Shown here piece by piece: positions 3,378-20,515 of a stretch of 24,473 nucleotides of DNA (position 1 is its first letter; each line of letters begins with the position of its first letter). This stretch comes from a virus: UHGV virus genome UHGV-0454263; one strand, 5' to 3'. The notes under the pieces were generated by a model. It had not been told where the DNA came from, did no database searches, and saw only the letters and a list, made by a program, of their open reading frames with translations. The position numbers and the translations under genes are program-made.

Positions 3378-4858
3378 GGTATGTTGTAGCTTGAGTAATC
3401 AATCTCTTTAGGATCTTTGATGTCTCGCATCTGTATTGCAAAACGCCTCATCATGTAGCCATAGCGAACAGCAGAAAGGATGTCGTCATTTAGCTTGACG
3501 ATCTTCCCGTTCTCATCGCGGTGATACAGGCGAAACTCTTCAAAGAATGGCTCGCAGGTGTTAAATACCTTGAAACGACCGTCGAGCATCATGTCGCGTA
3601 TCTCTGCTATCCCGGGTTCGACCGCATTACCTCCATCAGGCCATGTTGCATGATCTGGCAACATGTCGAACCCAGCGTCGGCGTATTGTTCCTTGAGCTG
3701 AGCGCCGCCTCCCTTTTCGTGCTGATGCCCGTCATGAGGCCAAGCCGTAGGGGTGTTTTTGCTCCATGCTTTAACAGCACTCCATGCCTCTGTCGCCTTC
3801 TTCTGTTTGGCCTTCCAGACGCGAGAAAGATAAATCACGTCCTCGTCTTTATCCCACCAAAGCTGGATATGTGCCTGTGGGTGATCCCATCCGAAGTCCA
3901 TTGCATTGATGACGTAGAAGTGATCAGGACACTCGAACGGCTGACACTTAATCGTCTCTTCCGGTATCTGGAAGATTCGACCGCTACCCATCGTAGGAAT
4001 ACCGCGAGCACGCGCCTCTCTCTCATGCTCAGGATAAGATGCGATGATTTGCTCTTTCTGCTCGTCGGTGTAGTGCTCAGCGTCATAGATGGTCATGTTG
4101 ACCACTTTCTGCGACTTGCTGGGATTCTTCAGGAACTTGGTAACAACGTCAGACATCCCCATCAGCGGGGTAAACGTCAGAATTGAGAATTGCCCGTATT
4201 TGTTGGTACGGGTAAGCCCTTCGCCATAAATGCTGTATGGTGGCTCTTCGTCAAACCACACGCCGTGGATTGTGTCACCCTGCCAGCGAGCGCGTCCTTG
4301 CGAGTATGGTTTGAAGTAGCAGATTGAAATGCCATCTTCAACGCCATCAGCCGTGTGATGCTTAACCAGAAGATGATCAACAAGGTTCGGAAAGAAAGGA
4401 GACTTCTTCCAGCTAATGATGTCTTCTTTCGGTATGGAACCGTAGCCTGGCTCGTCATTCTCTTCAATACGACCGCACAGGATGCGTTGAGTCGTTTTGG
4501 TTACAGTCTCGTTTGTCTCGCCGCCAATCCAGAAGACAACAGGCTCATAGAAACGCTTACCTTTCCACTCACCGCCATATTTACCATCAGCAGGATAGCC
4601 TTTTGTGCCCGGATAACGCCCGGTAAGGTGAAACGCGACTTCAGCAGCACCAGTAAATGACTTACCAAGCTGGTTACCAGCCATAAAACAGCGCTCTGGA
4701 TAGTCATGCCCGGCGTCGATGAACTCACGCTGTTTGCTGTATGGCGTAAATTCATATAGCAGGTGTGTGTTCCGGTAGTTCTCTTCTTCTTCGAGTAGCT
4801 CGAGCAACTCGATTTGCTCTTCGTCGCTCAGGTTATCAAGAATCGCGTCCAGTTCCAC
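3362..4858 (-). CDS. Terminase large subunit (P22 gp2-like)
   Basis: 498-aa ORF; size and position between small terminase and portal; overlaps the small terminase stop. Confidence 0.85.
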
Positions 4859-5330
4859 GGTTGAATAGCTCCTTGATACGAGAGCGTCGCTTATCGCGAT
4901 CTCCCTTATCAGGTGTCACGTCTTCAACTTGCGACTGCTCTTTGAGGCCCAAATCACGGGCGATGATGTTAGCGTTGAGAAGGTCAGCGGCTGCGCCAGA
5001 GAATTTCTGGTCGTAGATGATGTCTTCCGCTCGTGATGTGACGTCAGAAAAACCTTCCATTGACCGGAAGGTTCCCCATGTTTGCCTGGTGATATCAAGG
5101 AAGGTACACAATCCTGAAATAGTCATGGCTCGCATCTTAGGAAGATTAGCCTTAATTATTTCTCCCTGATATGAAAATACCTTACCCTCCCATAGCGGGT
5201 TATCATCAGCCCACTCGAAGTATTCACAACAAGCAGCCCACAGCGCCTCAGGCGATTCGAATTTAGGGTTTCGCCCATGACTACTGCGGGCCTCCCAGAA
5301 TCGGTTGCCCTTTGGTGCTGCCATATTCAT
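4836..5330 (-). CDS. Terminase small subunit (P22 gp3-like)
   Basis: 164-aa ORF ([31 protein letters not shown]...) immediately upstream of large terminase; start may be Met3. Confidence 0.7.
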
Positions 5331-12959: not shown

Positions 12960-13229
12960 TCATTGCTTCATCTCCCTTTCCATTTCATCAATGTCAACGT
13001 CATCAGGAAGATGGGAGCAATACGCCGCTATACCATGATGATTTATCTCATACCCTTTGAACGTTACCATCTGGCGCGTAATCTCAACTTCGTTCAGGAA
13101 TCCGTCATCGCATAACTGCCTGGCTATTTTCGATTTGGTCTGGATTATTGGTAGTGCCTGTTCTTTCAAAGCGCATGATATTTGTGCATCCCATGCCTTT
13201 TCGAGAATGGCTAATTGTTTTTTATTCAT
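12960..13229 (-). CDS. Hypothetical protein
   Basis: 89-aa ORF; its ATG overlaps the helicase stop (TGATG); no motif recognised. Confidence 0.5.
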   Translation of the reverse strand: MNKKQLAILEKAWDAQISCALKEQALPIIQTKSKIARQLCDDGFLNEVEITRQMVTFKGYEINHHGIAAYCSHLPDDVDIDEMEREMKQ

Positions 13230-14665
13230 CAGAATCCTCCTTTCTTCTTGGACTGCGGTTCCTCGCGTTCACGTCGGCGCATTTCAGCAGACTGTTGGTC
13301 TGTGTCATAAATAGCGCCATTTGCCTGAATGCAATACACCGTGCCGGTATTGCCATGACGATTGAGGCGAAGGATTAGTTCGGTTTCACCAGGTGGAACA
13401 CTGTCATCAAAAGCACCTTCACGATGGATCCCCACCCAATAATCGCAATCCTGTTCAATCTGCCCTGTATCTCGTGAGTCACTTGGTAATGGGCGTTTAT
13501 TGGTTCGGCTTTCCAATGCGCGGTTAAGCTGTGTCAGAAGCACAACAACGCAATCAAGCTCTTTGGCAAGGTTCTTCAGTCCTTTGGTGATCATGCCGTA
13601 AGCAAGGTCGTTGCGATCGGCCTTCTCAGCAGTCATTAGTGTCAGGTAATCGACCAGAATCATGCCAACACATCCTTTTTCTCGCTTGATTCGACGGCTT
13701 TCGCTGACGATTTGAGCCAGAGATAATCCCGGCGTGTCGTCGATGTAAAGCAGGTCGATTTCACTCAAGCGATTGGCTGTTTCGATCGCCCTGTTGAAGT
13801 CACCATCGTAATCACCCTGATAGCCGTCATCAGCGTCATTTGTCGCCGGAAGGTAAAAAATATTCGGGTTAATACCTGACTTCTGCCCTACCAGTTTTTC
13901 CAGTATCTGATCACCTGGCATTTCAAGGCTGAACATCAGAGCGGGCTTTTTCTCATGCACTGCGCAATTGATTGCCATCTGGCTGTATAGCGTCGTTTTC
14001 CCCATCTTAGGGCGAGCACCAATGACAAACAGAGAGCCTTTCACCAGACCTTTCGGTGACAGCATCCTGTCCAGCGATGGGATCCCTGTGCTCATTCCCC
14101 GTTGTTCTCCTGATGGGTCAAATCGCTTCTCAAGGTCGCTAACCCAGTCTTCCATGACCTCACCAAATGAACGAAGGCCGCGACGCGATCCGGTTTTTGC
14201 ATGGTCTGTCAGTTGCGTGAAAATCGACTGAATAGCTTCGTACTTCTGCGTCGCAGTCATTCCGTTGCGGGAATAGAGCAATTCCGTCGCTTCAGTCATG
14301 CGGTTGATGGCGTAGCGTTCCATTGCGGTTTCACGAACCTGCATTGCATAGGCAACGATGTTTGCTGCGCTTGGCGTGTTCTTTGCGATCTCAGCGATAT
14401 AAGCAAAACCGCCAACAGACACCGTTAACGATTTACGCTCCAGTTCATCGAAAAGCGTCAGGCCATCTACTGGCTTTTGCTCCCGGTGCATTCTGGTTAT
14501 CTCTTCGAAAAGGATTTTGTGTGGTCGGCTGTAAAATGAATCGGGCTTCAGCATCGCCAGAACTTTCTGGACGCGCTCACTGCTGTCATCATCCAGAAGC
14601 AATCCACCAATCACCGCCTGCTCTGCCTCGATGCTATGGGGCGGCGCATAAAAATTATCGGTCAT
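13229..14665 (-). CDS. Replicative DNA helicase, DnaB family (P22 gp12-like)
   Basis: Walker A GARPKMGKTT, DnaB-like N-terminal domain (SIEAEQAVIGGLLLD); start assigned to ATG at 14665 preceded by GAGGGTG. Confidence 0.9.
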   Translation of the reverse strand: MTDNFYAPPHSIEAEQAVIGGLLLDDDSSERVQKVLAMLKPDSFYSRPHKILFEEITRMHREQKPVDGLTLFDELERKSLTVSVGGFAYIAEIAKNTPSAANIVAYAMQVRETAMERYAINRMTEATELLYSRNGMTATQKYEAIQSIFTQLTDHAKTGSRRGLRSFGEVMEDWVSDLEKRFDPSGEQRGMSTGIPSLDRMLSPKGLVKGSLFVIGARPKMGKTTLYSQMAINCAVHEKKPALMFSLEMPGDQILEKLVGQKSGINPNIFYLPATNDADDGYQGDYDGDFNRAIETANRLSEIDLLYIDDTPGLSLAQIVSESRRIKREKGCVGMILVDYLTLMTAEKADRNDLAYGMITKGLKNLAKELDCVVVLLTQLNRALESRTNKRPLPSDSRDTGQIEQDCDYWVGIHREGAFDDSVPPGETELILRLNRHGNTGTVYCIQANGAIYDTDQQSAEMRRREREEPQSKKKGGF

Positions 14666-15554
14666 CGTGTTCACCCTCACGAACTTTCAGGTAGGTATTG
14701 TCGTTAAGCAGGAAATCAAATCCCTTTTTGTGCCAGACGGTTCCGCGTTGATGGTTTGGGCGTTCTTCGAACATCCATCGGCAATTTTCGCCTACGTAGC
14801 TCAAATAATTTCTCCAGTCCTGCATCGTGAACCCATGCCCGTCAAGCTGGCGGGTTATCACTCCGGCTTTGCGCCAGAACGTTCGGATCTGGTTTTTACG
14901 CTTGTCATTCAGTGCGCGGATTCTTGGCGCTTCAGGAAGGATTTCGTGGTAAGCATCGACAACATCCTGACAGCTGACGGAAGGTTTTTTCTTGTCAGAC
15001 TTTTTGTCTGCTGTGGCACTCTCTAATACGTCAGTATTAGAGATAATATTATTATATTCTTTATCTGTGGTAATTTGCTGGTAATCTGCTGGTACAGTAT
15101 TGCTTGCAGGCATTGGTATTGCTGGCTTTGAGGTGGTAATTTGCTGGTAATCTGCTGGTACAAAATTTGACTGATAATCGTCATATTTCTCTACCGAGAA
15201 AACTGAGAATTTACCGTGTGAAACCCAGTCAATCATGCCGAGTTTTTTGAACTTTCTAAGCAGGTACTGAACGCGATCTGGTTTGAGTCCTGTTTCAAAC
15301 GCCAGAGAGTTTCTACCGCCAAGTAGCTTACCTCTGCCTACCAGAATTTCTCCTGCGTCAGTCATTACATACTCAGGCGTATGCTTTGCTTTGAGGATTA
15401 AGTGAACCCACAGATGCGCAGCTTCTGCGTCCTTGTAAAACGGCACATCCATAATTTTACGGTGCAGCAAGGCATACCCCTTACCGCTGCTTTGATGCGG
15501 TTGTTGTAGCCTTCTGGCCTCTCTGGCTTCGGCTAGATTAGATATGTTACTCAT
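14655..15554 (-). CDS. Replication initiation protein (lambda O / P22 gp18 functional analogue)
   Basis: 299 aa; internal peptide repeat [10 protein letters not shown] x2 encoded by DNA iterons; position between cII and helicase. Confidence 0.75.
15035..15165. repeat. Origin of replication: iterons plus AT-rich tract inside the initiator gene
   Basis: 29-bp unit TGGTAATTTGCTGGTAATCTGCTGGTACA at 15068..15096 and 15134..15162, built from 11-bp sub-repeats TGGTAATNTGC; further GGTATTGCTGG copies between; adjacent AT-rich tract AGATAATATTATTATATTCTTTATC. Confidence 0.6.
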
Positions 15555-15693
15555 GACCTTTCTCCTTCTGCATCAGCTTCACTTTTTCCAACTCAGCCCG
15601 GAATCGACCAGGCTGCTTGAAGCTGGACAGGAAGCGATCACGTAGTATGTGTTTGTGAATTTTGTCCTGGTAAGGACTGAGTTGTTTTGTCAT
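15547..15693 (-). CDS. Small ORF between cII and the initiator gene (P22 orf48-like position)
   Basis: 48 codons ([48 protein letters not shown]); stop overlaps the initiator ATG (ATGAGTAA); below the ORF-track length cut-off. Confidence 0.4.
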
Positions 15694-15725
15694 AATTACT
15701 CCTGTGGATTGATCCAGTAATTCCC

Positions 15726-16022
15726 TCAGAATTGCATATCAATTTGCTTAAAATCCTCGGTGGCAGCCGGGGATTTTTTCTTTGTGATTTCATCAAGCGC
15801 ATACTTAAAAGCCCTGCTAATCGGACTGATGTCTGATGCCATTCCGAAAGCACACAAGACCGAAGCAATAAATCTCCAGTCCGTTCTGCTTATCTTCGAT
15901 TCATGACAGCCAATCATCTTTGCCAGACCGCGCTGGGTAAGCGTTGACAGGTTGATAAGTAAATCTGTTTCAGCGCGATCAACGTCACGCTGTGATAGTT
16001 TGCTGTAACTTGTTTGTTCCAT
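15726..16022 (-). CDS. cII: CII-like transcriptional activator
   Basis: 98 aa; HTH and C-terminus ...[20 protein letters not shown] resemble lambda CII (...TNKKRPAATERSEQIQMEF). Confidence 0.8.
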
Positions 16023-16097
16023 TTCTTAAGATTTCCAGTAGTGAATAGTTAGTTGAAAGGTATGCGTGGAAACGCATATGGCCTTAGTTGGTCAGAT

Positions 16098-16153
16098 ATC
16101 TTGGAACTCGCTTTTCAGCGACGTAGGACGAATGTCCGTTGTTACAAAGAGCG
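16098..16153 (-). promoter_or_regulatory. nutR (boxA plus boxB hairpin)
   Basis: Minus strand CGCTCTTTG (boxA-like), 23-nt spacer, TCGCT-GAAAA-AGCGA (boxB-like stem-loop); between cro and cII. Confidence 0.5.
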
Positions 16154-16160
16154 GGGTTAC

Positions 16161-16394
16161 TTATGCTGCTGATGCTCTACGCGATACGAACACCAGATTT
16201 TCCTTTTTCACAGGTTTATAACCCGTGAAATTACGAGTGGCTTCTTCGATTGCATTCGCTTTATCTGGGGAAGCTCTTCGAAACCCATATGCAATCTGAT
16301 CAAGATAGCCAACTGAAGTATTCGCTAATGCGGCGAGTCGCTTCCATTCCTCACTAGAAGCCTCTTTTCGCCAGCGTAGTAGTTCATTACTCAT
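16161..16394 (-). CDS. cro: Cro-like HTH repressor
   Basis: 77-aa ORF divergent from cI with predicted helix-turn-helix (LAALANTSVGYLDQIAYGFRR); first gene of the rightward operon. Confidence 0.65.
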   Translation of the reverse strand: MSNELLRWRKEASSEEWKRLAALANTSVGYLDQIAYGFRRASPDKANAIEEATRNFTGYKPVKKENLVFVSRRASAA

Positions 16395-16507
16395 TAGTGC
16401 CTCCGTTTATCACACAGAGTAACTTTACCATTTTGATAAATCAACTGCAATAAAGATTTATCAAAATGCGTATTTATCCATTTGCTAAATAGAGGGAGAA
16501 TCGTGGG
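16395..16507. promoter_or_regulatory. OR operator region with divergent pR and pRM
   Basis: 13-bp inverted repeat ATTTTGATAAATC / GATTTATCAAAAT plus further TTTATC half-sites; candidate pR on minus strand TTGCAG-17-TAAAGT (16450..16422); cI RBS GAGGGAGA upstream of ATG 16508. Confidence 0.6.
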
Positions 16508-17212
16508 ATGGAAAACAAAGATATTCGCAAATCGAATCTGGCGTTTTTGCTAGACGAGCATAAAAAAATCGCGGGTAACACTAATGCAAGCTTTGCCGAT
16601 AAGCTTGGAGTTAGCCCTTCTCAACTCACGCAAGTCTCCGGTGAAAAAAGCACTCGAAACATAGGGGATAAACTAGCAAGAAAATTCGAAGCCGCACTTG
16701 GGTTACCTAATGGGTGGCTTGATTTGGTACATGATGTAACACCAATTGCATCATGCTCAGATTCTTTAACTTTTGTCGGTCAGGTAAGAAAAGGGTTAGT
16801 GCGCGTGGTTGGTGAGGCAATTCTTGGTGTTGATGGTGCCATCGAGATGACCGAAGAGCGCGATGGGTGGCTCAAGATTTATAGCGATGATCCAGATGCC
16901 TTTGGTCTTCGTGTGAAAGGAGACAGCATGTGGCCCAGAATAAAATCAGGAGAATATGTACTCATTGAGCCTAACACCAAAGTATTCCCGGGGGATGAGG
17001 TGTTTGTCAGAACTGTTGAAGGACACAACATGATCAAAGTTCTTGGCTATGACAGAGACGGAGAATACCAATTTACAAGCATCAACCAAGATCATAGGCC
17101 AATAACGTTGCCTTATCATCAAGTAGCAAAGGTGGAGTATGTAGCTGGTATTCTGAAGCAATCTCGCCATCTGGATGACATCGAGGCAAGGGAGTGGCTG
17201 AAAAGTTCGTGA
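16508..17212 (+). CDS. cI: CI repressor (HTH N-terminal domain, S24 LexA-like autocleavage domain)
   Basis: 234 aa; N-terminal HTH; C-terminal S24 peptidase motif GDSMWPRIKSGEYVLIEP with Ser-Lys dyad. Confidence 0.9.
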   Translation: MENKDIRKSNLAFLLDEHKKIAGNTNASFADKLGVSPSQLTQVSGEKSTRNIGDKLARKFEAALGLPNGWLDLVHDVTPIASCSDSLTFVGQVRKGLVRVVGEAILGVDGAIEMTEERDGWLKIYSDDPDAFGLRVKGDSMWPRIKSGEYVLIEPNTKVFPGDEVFVRTVEGHNMIKVLGYDRDGEYQFTSINQDHRPITLPYHQVAKVEYVAGILKQSRHLDDIEAREWLKSS

Positions 17213-17315
17213 CTTCATCGTCACATAGCTGGTAACCAGTGGCCTGAAGAGACGTTTGGGTGATGAAACCACTTTTATCTACAATTTACAGGGCGGTAAA
17301 CATTGGCAAAAATAG

Positions 17316-17584
17316 ATGATTATCAGCCAAGCCAAGTAGAAGTTGATAAAGTACTTTATTGTAAAAAAATAGNNNNNNNNNNNNNNNNNNNNNNNNNNNN
17401 NNNNNNNNNNNNNNNNNNNNNNNNNNNNNNNNNNNNNNNNNNNNNNNNNNNNNNNNNNNNNNNNNNNNNNNNGATTATCAGCCAAGCCAAGTAGAAGTTG
17501 ATAAAGTACTTTATTGTAAAAAAATAGATGATTATCAGCCAAGCCAAGTAGAAGTTGATAAAGTACTTTATTGTAAAAAAATAG
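17316..17584 (+). repeat. Perfect 57-bp tandem repeat array (at least 3 copies) interrupted by an assembly gap
   Basis: Unit ATGATTATCAGCCAAGCCAAGTAGAAGTTGATAAAGTACTTTATTGTAAAAAAATAG at 17316..17372, partial copy 17473..17527, full copy 17528..17584; the run of exactly 100 N (17373..17472) lies inside the array. Confidence 0.9.
17373..17472. other. Assembly gap (100 N) of unknown true length
   Basis: Exactly 100 consecutive N, flanked on both sides by the same 57-bp repeat. Confidence 0.95.
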
Positions 17585-17631
17585 TTAACTTTTCTGGCGT
17601 TAAATGGAAACAGAAACCAAGTCGCTCTGAT

Positions 17632-18072
17632 ATGTGGCTACAAGCTCATATCATCCCCTTGGATGAGGATTGTATACCTATACAAGGGCTAAAGTTTGAA
17701 CTGAAATGGAAACCAGATCAGGATTCAGAACCTGATGACCCGATTTCTTACCCTAAAATAAATATTATTGCTTTCTATCATAACAAGAGGGTTTTCGCGG
17801 TAGATACCTATCACTTTGACAAACACACGAATAGTTACAAGTTCGATCATCCGAAGTACCAAGATATCATTTACGGTGCTCACTACCATGTATACTATGA
17901 AGAAGCTGGATACTATAGTGATAGAATAGCGTTTCCAATCGAAGATGACATAAACCCAGATGACCTGGTAGGGTATTGGAATTACTTCTGTAAACATCTG
18001 AACATAACTTACTCTGGGAGAATACCTTTACCACTTGAAGATGAGTCGGGGCAAATGGGGTTTGGAATATGA
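17632..18072 (+). CDS. Uncharacterised protein A in the rexA-equivalent slot (possibly extends upstream through the repeats to TTG 17303)
   Basis: 146-aa ORF, His/Tyr/Asp-rich, AT-rich codon usage; the 57-bp repeats upstream are open in the same reading frame; stop overlaps the next gene's ATG (ATGA). Confidence 0.55.
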   Translation: MWLQAHIIPLDEDCIPIQGLKFELKWKPDQDSEPDDPISYPKINIIAFYHNKRVFAVDTYHFDKHTNSYKFDHPKYQDIIYGAHYHVYYEEAGYYSDRIAFPIEDDINPDDLVGYWNYFCKHLNITYSGRIPLPLEDESGQMGFGI

Positions 18073-18821
18073 TGTGCTCAACAGTGATCTCACAACTAGG
18101 TTTCGAATGCCATCCAATAGGCAAGACCTTGAGAATTATCAGTCCATTCACTTACTGTGATGATGGAGAGCATGTCGGTGCTTTTATCCGTGAAGTCAAT
18201 GGTAGGTATTTAGTTAGTGATAGATGCGATGCCTTAATGAATATGGAGGCAAGAGGGATCTCGCTTACCAAAAAACGACTTGATGAGATACGACAATTAC
18301 TGCTTAAAGAAGGCGCAGAGCTCAATGATCGAGGAGAAATCATTGCTTGGGCAACAGAAAAGGATGTCGGTGCGATTACATCGAACATAATTAGAGCTGG
18401 TATACTCGCATCAACTTTGTCGTTAGACTGGTATCAGCCAGTTCAAGCTGAAAAGTTTGAAAGTATGGTTATTGATTATCTATATCACACAGAGCTTAGA
18501 GACGCACTTTCTCTTCGTGAAAACGTATATGGCTTGAGTGGACATCAAATTACCGTCCCTGTAACAATAAAAACCGACATACCTAAATACGTTTTTACAT
18601 CAAGCGTGAAACACGGAGGAAGCTGGAATAGTGCTTACTCATTGCTTGGGAAACTAATTGATCTTAAAGCATCAAGTGAGGAGTATAACAACAGATTTGT
18701 TGTTATAGACAGCGAAGCAATTGGTGACCAAATGCAACAACTCTCCTTACTCTTCCATGAATCAAGCCAAGTTCTACCATTCTCCAAAAGAGAGACTTGG
18801 GTTAAGAGACTTGCAGCATAA
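18069..18821 (+). CDS. Uncharacterised protein B in the rexB-equivalent slot
   Basis: 250-aa ORF translationally coupled to protein A; no Walker motif or transmembrane segment recognised; AT-rich. Confidence 0.65.
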   Translation: MMCSTVISQLGFECHPIGKTLRIISPFTYCDDGEHVGAFIREVNGRYLVSDRCDALMNMEARGISLTKKRLDEIRQLLLKEGAELNDRGEIIAWATEKDVGAITSNIIRAGILASTLSLDWYQPVQAEKFESMVIDYLYHTELRDALSLRENVYGLSGHQITVPVTIKTDIPKYVFTSSVKHGGSWNSAYSLLGKLIDLKASSEEYNNRFVVIDSEAIGDQMQQLSLLFHESSQVLPFSKRETWVKRLAA

Positions 18822-18825
18822 TACA

Positions 18826-18852
18826 ACCCGGCCTCAGCGCCGGGTTTTCTTT
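18826..18852 (+). terminator. Intrinsic terminator after the cI-proximal cassette (tImm-like)
   Basis: ACCCGGC-ctcagc-GCCGGGT stem-loop followed by TTTTCTTT, 5 nt after the protein B stop. Confidence 0.65.
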
Positions 18853-18959
18853 GCCTCACGTTCGCCCACCTAAAAACACATAATCGATTGTATTTATTGG
18901 AAAATAAACAGATACAACTCACTAAAACGCGCAATTCTGATCCCCCTCAAGTCTCTTTA

Positions 18960-19080
18960 TTCCTTCTGATAAATTCCTGCAATCAAATAAAAAACCATAA
19001 TAATCAACAAGATATTTGAAAACCAAAACAATTTATCATTTTGCTATTGCCATGGATTTATCATTCCGATAAAGTTAACT
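18960..19080 (+). promoter_or_regulatory. OL operators and candidate pL
   Basis: Repeated TTTATC/GATAAA half-sites (CTGATAAATTCC, AATTTATCATTTTGC, TTTATCattccGATAAA); candidate pL TTGCCA (19047..19052), 17-bp spacer, TAAAGT (19070..19075), whose -10 context TAAAGTTAACTC resembles that of pR. Confidence 0.5.
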
Positions 19081-19121
19081 CATCAGCAGGACGCTGTAAG
19101 CCCAACGGAACAGACTGGCAG

Positions 19122-19167
19122 GCTCTTTAAACAACGTCGAACACTCGACTACGTGGCTGAAAAGCCA
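19122..19167 (+). promoter_or_regulatory. nutL (boxA plus boxB hairpin)
   Basis: GCTCTTTAA (boxA-like), 23-nt spacer, TGGCT-GAAAA-AGCCA (boxB-like); same architecture and spacer length as nutR. Confidence 0.5.
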
Positions 19168-19265
19168 GATCACCCAACCACATAAGCTGTGGGATGCAAT
19201 GCCGAAGCAACCGTCTCAGGAGGGGCTTCGAGATTGCATCGCCAAAGTTTATTCGGGAGGAATCT

Positions 19266-19538
19266 ATGTCCAGAAAAACAGAATTTAAAGGAACCGCAGC
19301 TTCTCGCCGTAGAGCTCGTCGTGCAAATCTGCAAAGTCAGGAGGCGATCAGCTCCGACAAGCTACACAGGCCAACCCCTTCACGAGTGGTCTTGCAATGC
19401 AAGCGCAAACCAGCAATGAGAGCAGAAGTGATAACTCTGACAACGTTGACCAGAAAATATGAAGGTTCAACTTGTCTTCCAAACGTAGCTCTTTACGCAG
19501 CAGGATACCGGAAATCAAAACAACTGACGGCGAGATGA
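19266..19538 (+). CDS. N: N-like antiterminator with arginine-rich motif
   Basis: ATG at 19266 with GGGAGG 5 nt upstream; MSRKTEFKGTAASRRRARRANLQSQ... resembles the lambda N boxB-binding ARM (QTRRRERRAEKQAQ); position after pL/nutL. Confidence 0.7.
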   Translation: MSRKTEFKGTAASRRRARRANLQSQEAISSDKLHRPTPSRVVLQCKRKPAMRAEVITLTTLTRKYEGSTCLPNVALYAAGYRKSKQLTAR

Positions 19539-19559
19539 CGATCCCCCGCCGTCGAGGAA

Positions 19560-20099
19560 CTAAATTAGCTCATCAGCTTTACCAGCAAAGCGCATATAAC
19601 ACTCATGGAACCAGACGTCAGGTATAACAAATTTCTCTTTACCTGACGCGCTGTAAGTCACACCTGAGCGATGGAGAAGGCCTTTTCTCATAAGAGATAA
19701 AGCGACCGGATCGCCGTGCTTAAGTACGATTTTGTTATTTGCCATAACAGCAAATGCTAAAACCTCTTTTTCCTGAATACTCAGAGAATTGAACAGGCGC
19801 TCAGTCTCCACAATTACTTTAGCCTCATCTCTCTTACTGAGATATTTTTTATATCTGTCTGAAGATGCCAGAAATATAAACTCCATCACCCTGTTCAGAA
19901 CATAACTGATACACAAAAGCATCGCGTAATACATCCAGTGATCTGGAAGTATTTCTGGGTTCCTTATATCTACCCACTCTTTAATTGATGCTGGGGTGAT
20001 TATTATCAAGGCAATTAAAATAATAAGCATATGAATTAACTGTTGTAGCGTAAGACCACGCAGGAAGAAACGTAACAGTTCCTGCCACCAGTTACTCAT
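19560..20099 (-). CDS. sieB: Superinfection exclusion protein B (SieB-like)
   Basis: 179-aa ORF with N-terminal transmembrane segment, encoded antisense between N and ral exactly as lambda sieB; AT-rich. Confidence 0.7.
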   Translation of the reverse strand: MSNWWQELLRFFLRGLTLQQLIHMLIILIALIIITPASIKEWVDIRNPEILPDHWMYYAMLLCISYVLNRVMEFIFLASSDRYKKYLSKRDEAKVIVETERLFNSLSIQEKEVLAFAVMANNKIVLKHGDPVALSLMRKGLLHRSGVTYSASGKEKFVIPDVWFHECYMRFAGKADELI

Positions 20100-20244
20100 C
20101 GGTGAATCTCCATCATTCTCTCTGTAGGGGTGAATAGAGTTTATCCGATTTCTCGCTGTAGGGGTACACGAGAACCACCGAGCCTGATGTGGTTAAAAGA
20201 CAGGCACAATCTTTACTACCGCAATCCACTATTTAAGGTGATAT

Positions 20245-20331
20245 ATGGAAGAAGAATTTGAAGAGTTCGAAGAGCATCCTCAGGATGTGATGGAACAATA
20301 CCAGGACTATCCGTATGACTACGACTATTGA
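20245..20331 (+). CDS. orf28-like small ORF overlapping the ral start
   Basis: 28 codons (MEEEFEEFEEHPQDVMEQYQDYPYDYDY) overlapping ral, as lambda orf28 does. Confidence 0.45.
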   Translation: MEEEFEEFEEHPQDVMEQYQDYPYDYDY

Positions 20332-20515
20332 TACAAATCAATGGTGTGGACAATTCAAACGATGCAATGGATGCAAGCTGCAATCGGAATGCATGGTTAA
20401 GCCTGAAGAAATGTTTCCTGTAATGGAAGATGGGAAATATGTCGATAAATGGGCAATACGAACGACGGCAATGATTGCCAGAGAACTTGGTAAACAGAAC
20501 AACAAGGCTGCCTGA
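20315..20515 (+). CDS. ral: Restriction alleviation protein Ral
   Basis: 66 aa, MTTTIDTNQWCGQFKRCNGCKLQSECMVKPEEMFPVMEDGKYVDKWAIRTTAMIARELGKQNNKAA, near-identical to lambda Ral. Confidence 0.9.
   Translation: MTTTIDTNQWCGQFKRCNGCKLQSECMVKPEEMFPVMEDGKYVDKWAIRTTAMIARELGKQNNKAA

What the first reader, a model, noticed from the sequence alone, without database searches (positions are those of the whole stretch)
17303..18852. Uncharacterised AT-rich two-gene cassette in the rexAB slot downstream of cI: candidate novel prophage exclusion or defence system
In lambda, cI is co-transcribed from pRM with rexA-rexB, which exclude other phages, and that slot lies between cI and the OL/pL/nutL/N block. 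Here the same slot (cI, then these genes, then an intrinsic terminator, then OL/pL, nutL, N) holds two translationally coupled ORFs (146 aa and 250 aa, ATGA overlap). Neither resembles RexA or RexB or any family I recognise. The block is visibly AT-richer than the flanking lambda-like DNA, suggesting horizontal acquisition, and I see no strong terminator between cI and the cassette, so it is probably expressed in the lysogen. Protein A is rich in His, Tyr and Asp; protein B has no Walker motif or membrane segment.
Basis: partly seen in the sequence, partly recalled or inferred. Interest (0 to 1): 0.85.

Follow-up and report, generated by a model that had tools for sequence, protein, structure and literature searches.

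The report
Prophage two-gene candidate defence cassette
Where phage lambda keeps its rexAB exclusion genes, this E. coli prophage carries a conserved but untested gene pair (a small protein with no recognisable fold plus a nuclease-fold protein) that is most likely an anti-phage module, already flagged by two computational screens.

Summary

One correction is needed. Gene A is not 146 aa. It starts at TTG 17303. The 57-bp "repeats" are in-frame copies of its conserved N-terminal 19 residues (185 aa with one copy in all other genomes). A 100-N gap interrupts the array, and I found this expansion nowhere else.

Both genes are under purifying selection. They are always paired, and always lie downstream of, and co-directional with, a prophage repressor of varying type, from E. 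coli to Aeromonas. One divergent allele follows a lambda-type cI.

B combines a DUF1828 domain (type III secretion chaperone-like fold) with a DUF1829/PD-(D/E)xK nuclease fold that lacks a canonical catalytic motif. A has no structural match, but it carries an invariant D-H-N-H-H constellation.

Both proteins weakly match PADLOC candidate PDC-M24 (A to M24A, B to M24B). Both are listed as "predicted novel defense gene" by DefensePredictor, which did not screen them.

Verdict: a plausible, widespread and unvalidated prophage defence candidate. About 5.6% of complete E. coli genomes carry one of the two alleles, including Nissle 1917. It is not wholly unrecognised, and the mechanism is inferred only.

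The parts
16508..17212 (+). cI-type prophage repressor (context: head of the presumed operon)
   Evidence: Peptidase_S24 3.8e-16 and weak HTH_3. Identical to WP_000428098.1, annotated as a LexA-family regulator in E. coli CFSAN018748.
17236..17262 (+). Relic of the 3' end of a different (lambda/Nissle-type) cI: cag tgg cct gaa gag acg ttt ggg tga = QWPEETFG*. This is the left recombination joint of the cassette module.
   Evidence: It lies after the stop codon of the window's own cI. Homology with loci that carry other cI alleles begins at query position 24, which is window 17236. The same sequence ends the cI genes of L002, L019 and L030.
17303..18072 (+). Gene A: TTG start, then MAKI, then at least 3 tandem copies of a 19-aa unit, then a 162-aa remainder. 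It is interrupted by a 100-N gap. The single-copy form is 185 aa (WP_001062368.1).
   Evidence: Full-length alignment with 183-187-aa homologues. RefSeq annotation. phrog_2017 at 1.7e-66. pS 0.84-0.89 against pN 0.16-0.23, including codons 1-39. AF2 pLDDT 82, pTM 0.81.
17315..17583 (+). In-frame 57-bp tandem array that duplicates codons 5-23 of gene A. It contains the gap 17373-17472.
   Evidence: TRF reports period 57 with 100% matches. Repeat family D1. The unit-to-unit junction 33-mer occurs once in the window and nowhere in three exact-match collection scans. A related 42-mer junction query found nothing in 5,426 complete E. coli genomes. The listed genomes show single-copy spans of 181 nt.
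18069..18821 (+). Gene B, 250 aa. N-terminal DUF1828 domain (about aa 1-120, window 18069-18428) and C-terminal DUF1829/PD-(D/E)xK-fold domain (about aa 129-250, window 18453-18818).
18825..18856 (+). Intrinsic terminator that closes the cI-A-B unit (equivalent to lambda t_imm).
   Evidence: 8-bp stem with 6 GC pairs, then TTCTTTGCCT. This stretch (about window 18824-18900) is shared at 93-96% identity with 933W, mEp332 and other lambdoid phages that lack the cassette, and it is annotated 'terminator' there.
19045..19077 (.). OL/pL operator region (context)
   Evidence: 33-nt inverted repeat with OR at 16420-16452, 76% complementary. Promoter-like site at 19047-19075.
19194..19538 (+). Antiterminator N (context)
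   Evidence: Pfam N_peptide 2.4e-32.

Best explanation
The cassette is a lysogen-expressed, horizontally exchanged two-gene anti-phage module (superinfection exclusion or abortive infection). It is carried in the repressor operon of temperate phages and is functionally analogous to lambda rexAB, but unrelated to it.

Most likely working model:
- A and B are made together from the cI transcript. There is no terminator before them, the stop and start codons are coupled, and A's weak non-ATG start limits its dosage.
- B is the effector. Its C-terminal PD-(D/E)xK-fold domain attacks nucleic acid.
- B's N-terminal domain, which has the fold of type III secretion chaperones and YbjN-like proteins, is a protein-binding module. 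It either holds A or senses a phage protein.
- A is a small beta-rich protein with an invariant D97/H104/N106/H123/H125 site. It is the co-factor, sensor or regulator that gates B.

Shown here: the gene structure, conservation, the pairing of the two genes, their linkage to the repressor, the modular exchange, and the folds.

Inferred only: expression in the lysogen, a defence phenotype, nuclease activity, and the A-B interaction.

The tandem expansion of A's N-terminal 19 residues is a private and very recent variant of this strain. It probably arose by slippage between the AAAAATAG microhomologies that flank the unit. Its consequence is unknown.
For: 1. Real genes. pS is 0.74-0.89 against pN 0.09-0.23 relative to Salmonella, Yersinia and Izhakiella, for A, for A codons 1-39 and for B.
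2. Obligate pair. A lies immediately upstream of B, with a 4- or 13-nt overlap, in all 35 full-length related loci examined.
3. Repressor linkage across phage types. The upstream repressor is an S24 cI-type protein of 215, 231, 234, 235 or 237 aa, or a short HTH repressor of 128-131 aa. This holds in E. coli, Salmonella, Klebsiella, Yersinia, Providencia, Xenorhabdus, Pantoea, Thorsellia and Aeromonas.
4. Module exchange. The identical B protein follows at least 4 cI alleles. There is a relic of another cI's 3' end at 17236-17262. GC is 38.5% against 46.7% for the window.
5. Operon architecture. There is no terminator between cI and A, and there is a terminator after B.
7. Defence-specific pointers. 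Across the whole family, the only PADLOC hits are PDC-M24A for A-type proteins and PDC-M24B for B-type proteins, in the same gene order. PDC systems were defined by being embedded in BREX, DISARM or type I RM loci. DefensePredictor log-odds are 4.9-5.4 for A and 5.6-6.3 for B, both labelled "Predicted novel defense gene".
8. The cassette is carried by sequenced phage genomes: ev017, ev207, PhiR57_1, PhiR63_2 and Stx1_121427.
9. The non-ATG start of A is conserved in 11 of 12 lineages.
Against: - No experiment exists. The pair is absent from DefensePredictor's screened units (Tables S6-S8). Searches for the domain, candidate-system and Pfam identifiers (DUF1828, DUF6978, PDC-M24, DUF1829, PF08861, PF08862, PF22398) found no functional study.
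- The PADLOC matches are weak, at 13-38 bits.
- B lacks an obvious canonical D...(D/E)xK motif. The polar invariants of the C-domain are S157, H159, K173, T177, D198, R209, D214 and Q224, so catalysis is unproven.
- Not every gene in the cI operon is a defence gene. Phage 434 hex, for example, modulates repressor cleavage (abstract listed).
- In related icd-integrated prophages, protection has been attributed to other elements: svsR in NC101 and 'pr' in Nissle.
Confidence: 0.55

Rival explanations
1. The pair is a toxin-antitoxin-like addiction module. Its primary role would be to stabilise the prophage, or the repressor region, in the host. One partner (B as nuclease, or A as enzyme) would be toxic and the other would neutralise it. 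Any phage exclusion would be a by-product.
Against: The cassette matched only on chromosomes in complete E. coli genomes, and every locus examined is a prophage repressor slot. No known toxin or antitoxin family matches either protein in Pfam, NCBIfam or PADLOC. A is larger and better conserved than typical antitoxins, and it has an enzyme-like invariant site. The two roles are not mutually exclusive, since many toxin-antitoxin systems are defence systems.
Confidence: 0.17
2. The pair is an accessory of the lysogeny switch or of prophage DNA transactions, not a defence. It might, for example, modulate repressor cleavage or induction, as phage 434 Hex does, or process DNA at induction.
For: Co-transcription with the repressor is the one universally conserved feature. 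Phage 434 hex occupies the same slot and prevents RecA-mediated repressor cleavage (abstract). B has a DNA-enzyme fold.
Against: The same cassette works behind unrelated repressor types: S24-cleavable cI proteins and short HTH repressors that lack an S24 domain. That argues against a repressor-specific partner. Distant relatives (PDC-M24) were defined because they are embedded in BREX, DISARM or RM loci, not in prophages. DefensePredictor also scores both genes as defence.
Confidence: 0.12
3. The pair serves a lytic-cycle or counter-defence function of the phage itself, such as an anti-restriction or recombination nuclease, and it merely happens to lie next to cI.
For: Nuclease-fold proteins are common among phage early genes. 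In lambda, rexB is also transcribed late from pLIT (established knowledge, not tested here).
Against: The cassette is insulated from the pL operon by a terminator and by OL/pL lying downstream of it. It keeps its position next to the repressor, not next to recombination genes, in every phage type examined. It persists in prophages described as defective, such as Nissle prophage 3.
Confidence: 0.08
4. The 57-bp repeats are a non-coding regulatory array (iterons, operators or promoter multimers) upstream of a 146-aa gene A. This is what the first reader's gene model implies.
For: Each unit contains a perfect 14-nt palindrome, ATAAAGTACTTTAT, and a weak promoter-like match, TTGATA-16-AAAAAT.
Against: The unit equals codons 5-23 of a protein segment conserved across genera, with saturated synonymous sites. 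The palindrome is not conserved at the DNA level in any homologue. Unit length is exactly 19 codons. No complete E. coli genome or collection scan yielded a unit-to-unit junction. Promoter-like hits do not exceed the shuffled expectation: 10 found against 7.3 +/- 3.0.
Confidence: 0.04

Closest known systems
Lambda RexA/RexB (cI-cotranscribed exclusion system)
   Same: Same genomic slot and logic: two genes between cI and t_imm/OL-pL-N, on the same strand as cI. A divergent allele of this cassette sits behind a lambda-type cI, where rexAB would be.
   Different: There is no sequence relationship; no RexA or RexB Pfam hit appears at E <= 1. By established knowledge RexB is a multi-pass membrane protein, whereas B is a soluble alpha/beta two-domain protein. 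The predicted effector is a nuclease fold, not an ion channel.
PADLOC phage-defence candidate PDC-M24 (CAS_00098, FAM_00129>>FAM_00065; Payne et al. 2024, bioRxiv 10.1101/2024.01.29.577857)
   Same: Both components match, in the same order. A matches PDC-M24A (E 4e-4) and B matches PDC-M24B (4e-10, full length). This holds for allele 2, for the Aeromonas pair and for distant A relatives. PDC-M24 is also untested.
   Different: The matches are remote (13-38 bits). PDC systems were defined by being embedded in BREX, DISARM or type I RM loci, whereas this clade lives in prophage repressor operons.
Pfam DUF1828 plus DUF1829 proteins (DUF1829 belongs to clan PDDEXK)
   Same: B matches DUF1828 above Pfam's gathering score. 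A published HHpred analysis gives DUF1828 (aa 25-114, 99.5%) and DUF1829 (aa 155-241, 98.8%) for WP_000968518.1, which is 99.6% identical to B.
   Different: hmmscan does not detect DUF1829 in any of 25 family members. The family has no known function, so membership says nothing about mechanism.
PD-(D/E)xK nucleases of the Cfr10I/NgoMIV/PspGI type and the Can2 nuclease domain
   Different: Identity is only 5-12%. No canonical D...(D/E)xK motif is present. The invariant residues are S157, H159, K173, D198 and D214. A Cfr10I-like relocation of the acidic residue to the helix (D198) is possible, but I could not test it.
Class I type III secretion chaperones, YbjN-like proteins and DUF2170 proteins
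   Different: There is no secretion context. The domain carries its own invariant polar motif, D51-x2-D54-x3-N58-x-E60-x-R62-G63, and I did not check whether the chaperones share it.
DefensePredictor 'predicted novel defense genes' (DeWeirdt et al., Science 2026, PMC13092281)
   Same: A is listed by its exact accession and B by the 99.6%-identical Nissle allele and a further allele: WP_001062368.1, WP_000968518.1 and WP_000968517.1.
   Different: This is a prediction only. The pair is not among the units they cloned and tested. The DUF1829 protein they validated, DS-6B/HipAD, has a different architecture: DUF3037 plus DUF1829, paired with a HipA-family kinase.

Membership tests
RexAB | Homology to RexA (PF15969) and to the RexB Pfam family | tested here: not met
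   hmmscan against Pfam at E <= 1 returns only DUF6978 for A and DUF1828 for B.
RexAB | Position between cI and t_imm, co-directional with cI, with no intervening terminator | tested here: met
   Allele 2 lies behind a lambda-type cI.
RexAB | A membrane-channel component (RexB, multi-pass membrane protein) | tested here: not met
   AF2 models both proteins as soluble globular folds. No dedicated transmembrane predictor was run.
PADLOC PDC-M24 | Both component HMMs matched by adjacent genes in the order A then B | tested here: inconclusive
   A matches PDC-M24A at 18.4 bits (E 4e-4). B matches PDC-M24B at 37.6 bits (E 4e-10) over positions 4-254 of 256. The pattern is consistent across the family. 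PADLOC's own score thresholds are not available here, and the A match would probably fail them.
Pfam DUF1828 | Score above the gathering threshold (22 bits) | tested here: met
   35.5 bits for aa 26-110. All 25 family members match.
Pfam DUF6978 | Score above the gathering threshold (29.6 bits) | tested here: not met
   21.4 bits covering only the C-terminal third of the model. 8 of 15 distant relatives give sub-threshold hits.
PD-(D/E)xK nuclease superfamily | alpha-beta-beta-beta-alpha-beta core fold | tested here: met
PD-(D/E)xK nuclease superfamily | Catalytic D ... (D/E)-x-K constellation on strands beta2 and beta3 | tested here: inconclusive
   No canonical motif is present. H159 sits at the start of beta2 and K173 at the start of beta3, and the invariant acids D198 (helix) and D214 (after beta4) lie elsewhere.
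PD-(D/E)xK nuclease superfamily | Metal-dependent nuclease activity | not testable with these tools
   This needs biochemistry.
Type II toxin-antitoxin module | One partner is toxic and is neutralised by direct binding of the other | not testable with these tools
   Only the coupled gene arrangement is seen. No known toxin or antitoxin family is hit.
Anti-phage defence system (generic) | Reduces phage plating or propagation when expressed | not testable with these tools
   No published test was found.

The most novel reading that the evidence does not exclude
A is a previously unseen enzyme or sensor fold, built around an invariant R92/D97/H104/N106/H123/H125 site. It works with a non-canonical PD-(D/E)xK protein as a new mechanistic class of prophage immunity. 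A's conserved N-terminal 19-residue segment would be the peptide that docks into B's chaperone-like DUF1828 domain. On this reading, the in-frame tandem amplification in this strain is a natural gain or alteration of A-B valency, for example selected by a phage inhibitor or by toxicity, and not a neutral slippage product.
Probability: 0.12. Interest if true: 0.78.

Novelty: new variant of a known kind. Interest (0 to 1): 0.55.

Why it matters
If it is validated, this would be a widespread defence system that nobody has tested.

- Allele 1 is in 241 and allele 2 in 61 of 5,426 complete E. coli genomes, together about 5.6%. Carriers include the probiotic Nissle 1917, the type strain ATCC 11775, urinary and avian pathogenic lineages, a Stx1a-converting phage genome and the O104:H4 outbreak clone. 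Relatives occur from Salmonella to Aeromonas.
- Such a system would affect phage-therapy host range and competition between prophages.
- It might account for the "unidentified factor" behind Nissle's resistance to lambdoid phages.
- Mechanistically, it pairs a nuclease fold lacking the canonical motif with a small protein that has no structural relatives.
- The A family is very small: 20 clusters at 50% identity among 1.84 billion representatives.
- The conserved repressor-A-B arrangement makes a clean experimental handle: a 1.3-kb insert, two genes, and clear point mutants.

Tried and rejected
**Relationships to known families**
- RexA/RexB or any named defence family: no hits in Pfam, NCBIfam, PHROGs or PADLOC beyond DUF1828, a weak DUF6978 match, two PHROG families of unknown function, and PDC-M24.
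- Solved-structure relatives by sequence profile: nothing below E 0.29.

**Fold of A**
- Foldseek against BFVD gave nothing significant.
- The afdb50 library was unavailable.

**Repeats as a population-level, phase-variable tract**
- Rejected. Every complete genome listed has a single-copy span.
- The unit-to-unit junction is absent from the complete E. coli genomes, the species-representative genomes, IMG/VR and the JGI metagenomes.
- Caveat: the megablast query contains an A7 run and could in principle be affected by low-complexity filtering. The exact-pattern scans do not have this problem.

**Repeats or palindrome as a DNA-level element**
- The palindrome is not conserved in homologues.
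- Rfam finds nothing in 15500-20500.

**Reaching distant B relatives with genomic context**
- The word-indexed profile search and the genome scan returned only Enterobacterales and Aeromonas relatives.
- I therefore could not verify for myself the claim that PDC-M24 is embedded in RM or BREX loci. It rests on the paper.

**Literature**
- Searches for the domain, candidate-system and Pfam identifiers found no functional study of this pair. Broader searches on lambdoid cI-N slot defence, Nissle 1917, PADLOC candidates and phage names turned up nothing on it either.
- HepS (Gifsy-1) is unrelated.
- The 'pr' gene of Nissle maps to cII, not to this cassette.

**dN/dS**
- Synonymous sites are saturated for A (pS above 0.75), so only the contrast between pS and pN is reported.
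Full report
**1. What is in the window**

The window is a lambdoid prophage. On the + strand it reads as follows:
- OR (16420-16468).
- A cI-type repressor at 16508-17212 (Peptidase_S24 3.8e-16).
- A 90-nt spacer.
- Gene A, then gene B at 18069-18821.
- An intrinsic terminator at 18825-18846 followed by a T-run.
- An OL region that is an inverted copy of OR (19045-19077 against 16420-16452).
- N (Pfam N_peptide 2.4e-32), and sieB on the opposite strand.

A's TGA stop overlaps B's ATG as ATGA at 18069-18072. No terminator-like site lies between cI and the cassette. With the N run excluded, the cassette has 38.5% GC, against 44.7% for cI and 46.7% for the whole window. The low values in the raw profile are partly an artefact of the N run.

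**2. Correction of the gene model**

Gene A is not a 146-aa ORF.
- RefSeq annotates a 185-aa protein, WP_001062368.1, starting at the TTG that corresponds to window 17303.
- Homologues from Klebsiella, Salmonella, Yersinia, Buttiauxella, Xenorhabdus and other genera are 183-187 aa. They align from residue 1, and M1, A2, K3, D6, P9, Q11, V14, D15, L18 and K22 are invariant.
- Against Salmonella, Izhakiella and Yersinia, codons 1-39 show pS 0.76-0.91 and pN 0.20-0.24. This is the same pattern as in the rest of A and in B.
- The start codon is GTG or TTG in 11 of 12 lineages. That explains why a reader looking for ATG chose 17632.

The "repeats" are therefore coding. The unit is 57 bp, or 19 codons (DDYQPSQVEVDKVLYCKKI, residues 5-23), in frame, and the copies are 100% identical.

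A run of exactly 100 N (17373-17472) lies inside the array. The register shift across it is 155 nt, which is a multiple of neither 57 nor 3. I therefore read it as an assembly gap of unknown length. The window shows at least 3 copies.

In the single-copy allele the unit is flanked by the microhomology AAAAATAG, a plausible substrate for the first slippage event.

The unit-to-unit junction occurs once in the window and nowhere else:
- A 42-mer junction query found no match in 5,426 complete E. coli genomes, and all listed carriers show single-copy spans of 181 nt.
- Exact scans for a 33-mer junction found none in the species-representative genome collection, in IMG/VR or in the JGI metagenomes.

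The expansion is thus private to this source and recent. Its effect is unknown. In the AF2 model, residues 10-30 are confidently packed into the domain (pLDDT about 92; helix 11-18, strand 22-25), so any extra copies would hang off the N-terminus.

**3. Distribution and context**

Allele 1 is present in 241 of 5,426 complete E. coli genomes. Carriers include Nissle 1917, ATCC 11775, NU14, APEC O18 and ATCC 25922. It also occurs in the sequenced phage genomes ev017, ev207, PhiR57_1, PhiR63_2 and the Stx1a-converting phage Stx1_121427.

A second allele pair (A' of 180 aa and B' of 258 aa, about 41% and 51% identical) is present in 61 further genomes, including the O104:H4 outbreak clone.

In all 35 full-length related loci examined, A lies directly upstream of B with a 4- or 13-nt overlap. 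A prophage repressor lies upstream on the same strand in every one. The repressors differ widely:
- S24-type cI proteins of 215, 231, 234, 235 or 237 aa.
- Short HTH repressors of 128-131 aa in Klebsiella Rac-like and Salmonella prophages.
- In L020-L024, a cI whose N-terminal domain I recognise from memory as lambda's ([27 protein letters not shown]...). There the cassette stands where rexAB stands in lambda.

The identical B protein follows at least four cI alleles. Homology with loci carrying other cI alleles starts at window 17236. There the window carries "QWPEETFG*", the 3' end of a lambda/Nissle-type cI, stranded after its own cI stop codon. The right-hand boundary is the terminator region, which is shared with many lambdoid phages that lack the cassette. 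This is the signature of a module exchanged by recombination at conserved joints.

In some Izhakiella and Providencia loci, a DUF3024 gene is inserted between the repressor and A.

**4. The proteins**

*Protein B* (AF2 pLDDT 85) has two domains.

An independent published HHpred run on the 99.6%-identical WP_000968518.1 gives DUF1828 (99.5%) and DUF1829 (98.8%, clan PDDEXK).

A canonical D...(D/E)xK motif is not evident. The invariant polar residues of the C-domain are S157, H159, K173, T177, D198, R209, D214 and Q224. An arrangement like that of Cfr10I and NgoMIV, in which the acidic residue is supplied from the following helix (here D198), is conceivable, because that subgroup dominates the nuclease hits. 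I could not inspect coordinates, so catalytic competence remains open.

The N-domain has its own invariant motif: D51, D54, N58, E60, R62, G63.

*Protein A* (AF2 pLDDT 82, pTM 0.81) is beta-rich.
- The family is tiny: 20 cluster representatives among 1.84 billion.
- Across these relatives, down to 21% identity, the invariant residues are K22, W31, R92, D97, N106, G121, H123, H125, F158 and P173, with H104 nearly invariant. This looks like a catalytic or metal- or ligand-binding site.
- Matches to Pfam DUF6978 are below threshold.

**5. Relation to what is known**

Neither protein matches RexA, RexB or any named defence family. In PADLOC-DB, however, A-type proteins hit only PDC-M24A and B-type proteins hit only PDC-M24B. 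This holds for allele 1, allele 2, the Aeromonas pair and distant A relatives. The scores are weak, at 13-38 bits.

PDC-M24 is the cassette FAM_00129>>FAM_00065, with 153 instances. It is one of 145 untested candidates that were nominated because members of each are embedded in BREX, DISARM or type I RM loci.

DefensePredictor (Science 2026) lists WP_001062368.1 (log-odds 4.9-5.4) and WP_000968518.1/WP_000968517.1 (5.6-6.3) as "Predicted novel defense gene" in its ECOR and 3,000-genome tables. Neither the accessions nor "DUF1828" appear in its tables of screened units, plaque data or validated domains. The DUF1829 protein it validated belongs to a different system, HipAD.

Nothing experimental was found for this pair.
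- The Nissle 1917 study attributes part of that strain's resistance to lambda and Stx phages to a gene it calls 'pr', and it explicitly leaves another prophage-3 factor unidentified. By its primer sequences, 'pr' is the cII homologue.
- Protection by the related icd-integrated prophage NC-SV was attributed to an sRNA at the 3' end of cI.

**6. Interpretation**

The best-supported reading is a lysogen-expressed anti-phage module that occupies the rexAB niche. B would be a nuclease-fold effector carrying a protein-binding sensor or docking domain, and A would be an obligate partner that regulates or triggers it.

The context evidence is strong and comes from several independent directions:
- linkage to the repressor across unrelated repressor types and across genera;
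- modular exchange between phages;
- persistence in a prophage described as defective;
- two defence-prediction resources.

The mechanism is inferred. The main rivals are a toxin-antitoxin or addiction role, which is not exclusive of defence, an accessory role in the lysogeny switch (as with 434 hex), and a lytic or counter-defence function. Reading the repeats as a non-coding regulatory array is essentially refuted.

**7. Novelty and score**

The finding is a real, widespread and uncharacterised gene pair. It is not unrecognised, because it belongs to catalogued families of unknown function and has already been predicted as defence by machine learning and, remotely, by PADLOC.

A specialist would not be surprised that a moron (an accessory gene set carried by the prophage) in the cI operon is a defence candidate. 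The attractive parts are the partner protein with no known fold, the non-canonical nuclease domain, the direct substitution for rexAB, and the prevalence in medically relevant E. coli.

I rate it a new variant of a known kind, with interest 0.55.

Noticed in passing
window 17236-17262: The sequence 'QWPEETFG*', which is the 3' end of a lambda/Nissle-type cI gene, lies stranded downstream of the window's own cI stop codon. It marks the exact left recombination joint of the cassette module.
   Followed up: yes
window 17373-17472: A run of exactly 100 N lies inside the tandem array. The register offset across it (155 nt) fits neither the 57-nt period nor the reading frame, so this is a gap of unknown size. 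The repeat copy number and the integrity of gene A in this strain cannot be known from the window.
   Followed up: partly
window 17346-17359, 17501-17514, 17558-17571: Each repeat unit contains a perfect 14-nt palindrome, ATAAAGTACTTTAT. It is not conserved at the DNA level in homologues from other genera, so it is probably incidental.
   Followed up: yes
window 17303 (and L003-L033 equivalents): The start codon of gene A is GTG or TTG in 11 of 12 lineages, and ATG only in Thorsellia. This suggests selection for weak initiation of A relative to B.
   Followed up: partly
window 15726-16022 (-); L002 2604-2900: The 'phage repressor pr' (EcN_1294) that Bury et al. 2018 reported to protect against lambda and Stx phages maps, by its published primers, to the cII-family gene and not to cI.
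   Followed up: partly
L019-L024 (E. coli, including ED1a); H83-H88 (O104:H4): A second, divergent allele pair (A' of 180 aa and B' of 258 aa, about 41% and 51% identical) occupies the same slot. In L020-L024 it follows a lambda-type cI. It is present in 61 of 5,426 complete genomes, including the 2011 O104:H4 outbreak clone, and it gave no match in the phage-genome collection.
   Followed up: partly
L025 3044-3385, L027 3053-3394, L028 3052-3393: A 113-aa DUF3024 gene (Pfam 3.4e-27) is inserted between the repressor and gene A in Izhakiella and Providencia prophages. It may be a third component or a separate accessory gene.
   Followed up: partly
L009, L011, L012, L016, L017 at about 4652-5311; window 19560-20099 (-): The slot just downstream of N is also variable. 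It holds sieB in the window and in some loci (39.8% GC in the window, as AT-rich as the cassette), and an Nmad5-domain gene of 207 aa in others.
   Followed up: no
L032 (Actinomadura rugatobispora contig, 518 bp): A 518-bp contig in an actinomycete assembly encodes the end of A and the start of B at 84% identity to the E. coli proteins. This is almost certainly enterobacterial contamination of that assembly.
   Followed up: no
window 13229-14680 (-) and 14655-15554 (-): The replication module pairs a lambda O-like initiator (299 aa) with a 483-aa ORF, not with a lambda P-sized gene (233 aa in L001 and L002). The window's phage therefore differs from the closest E. coli matches on that side of the immunity region.
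   Followed up: no
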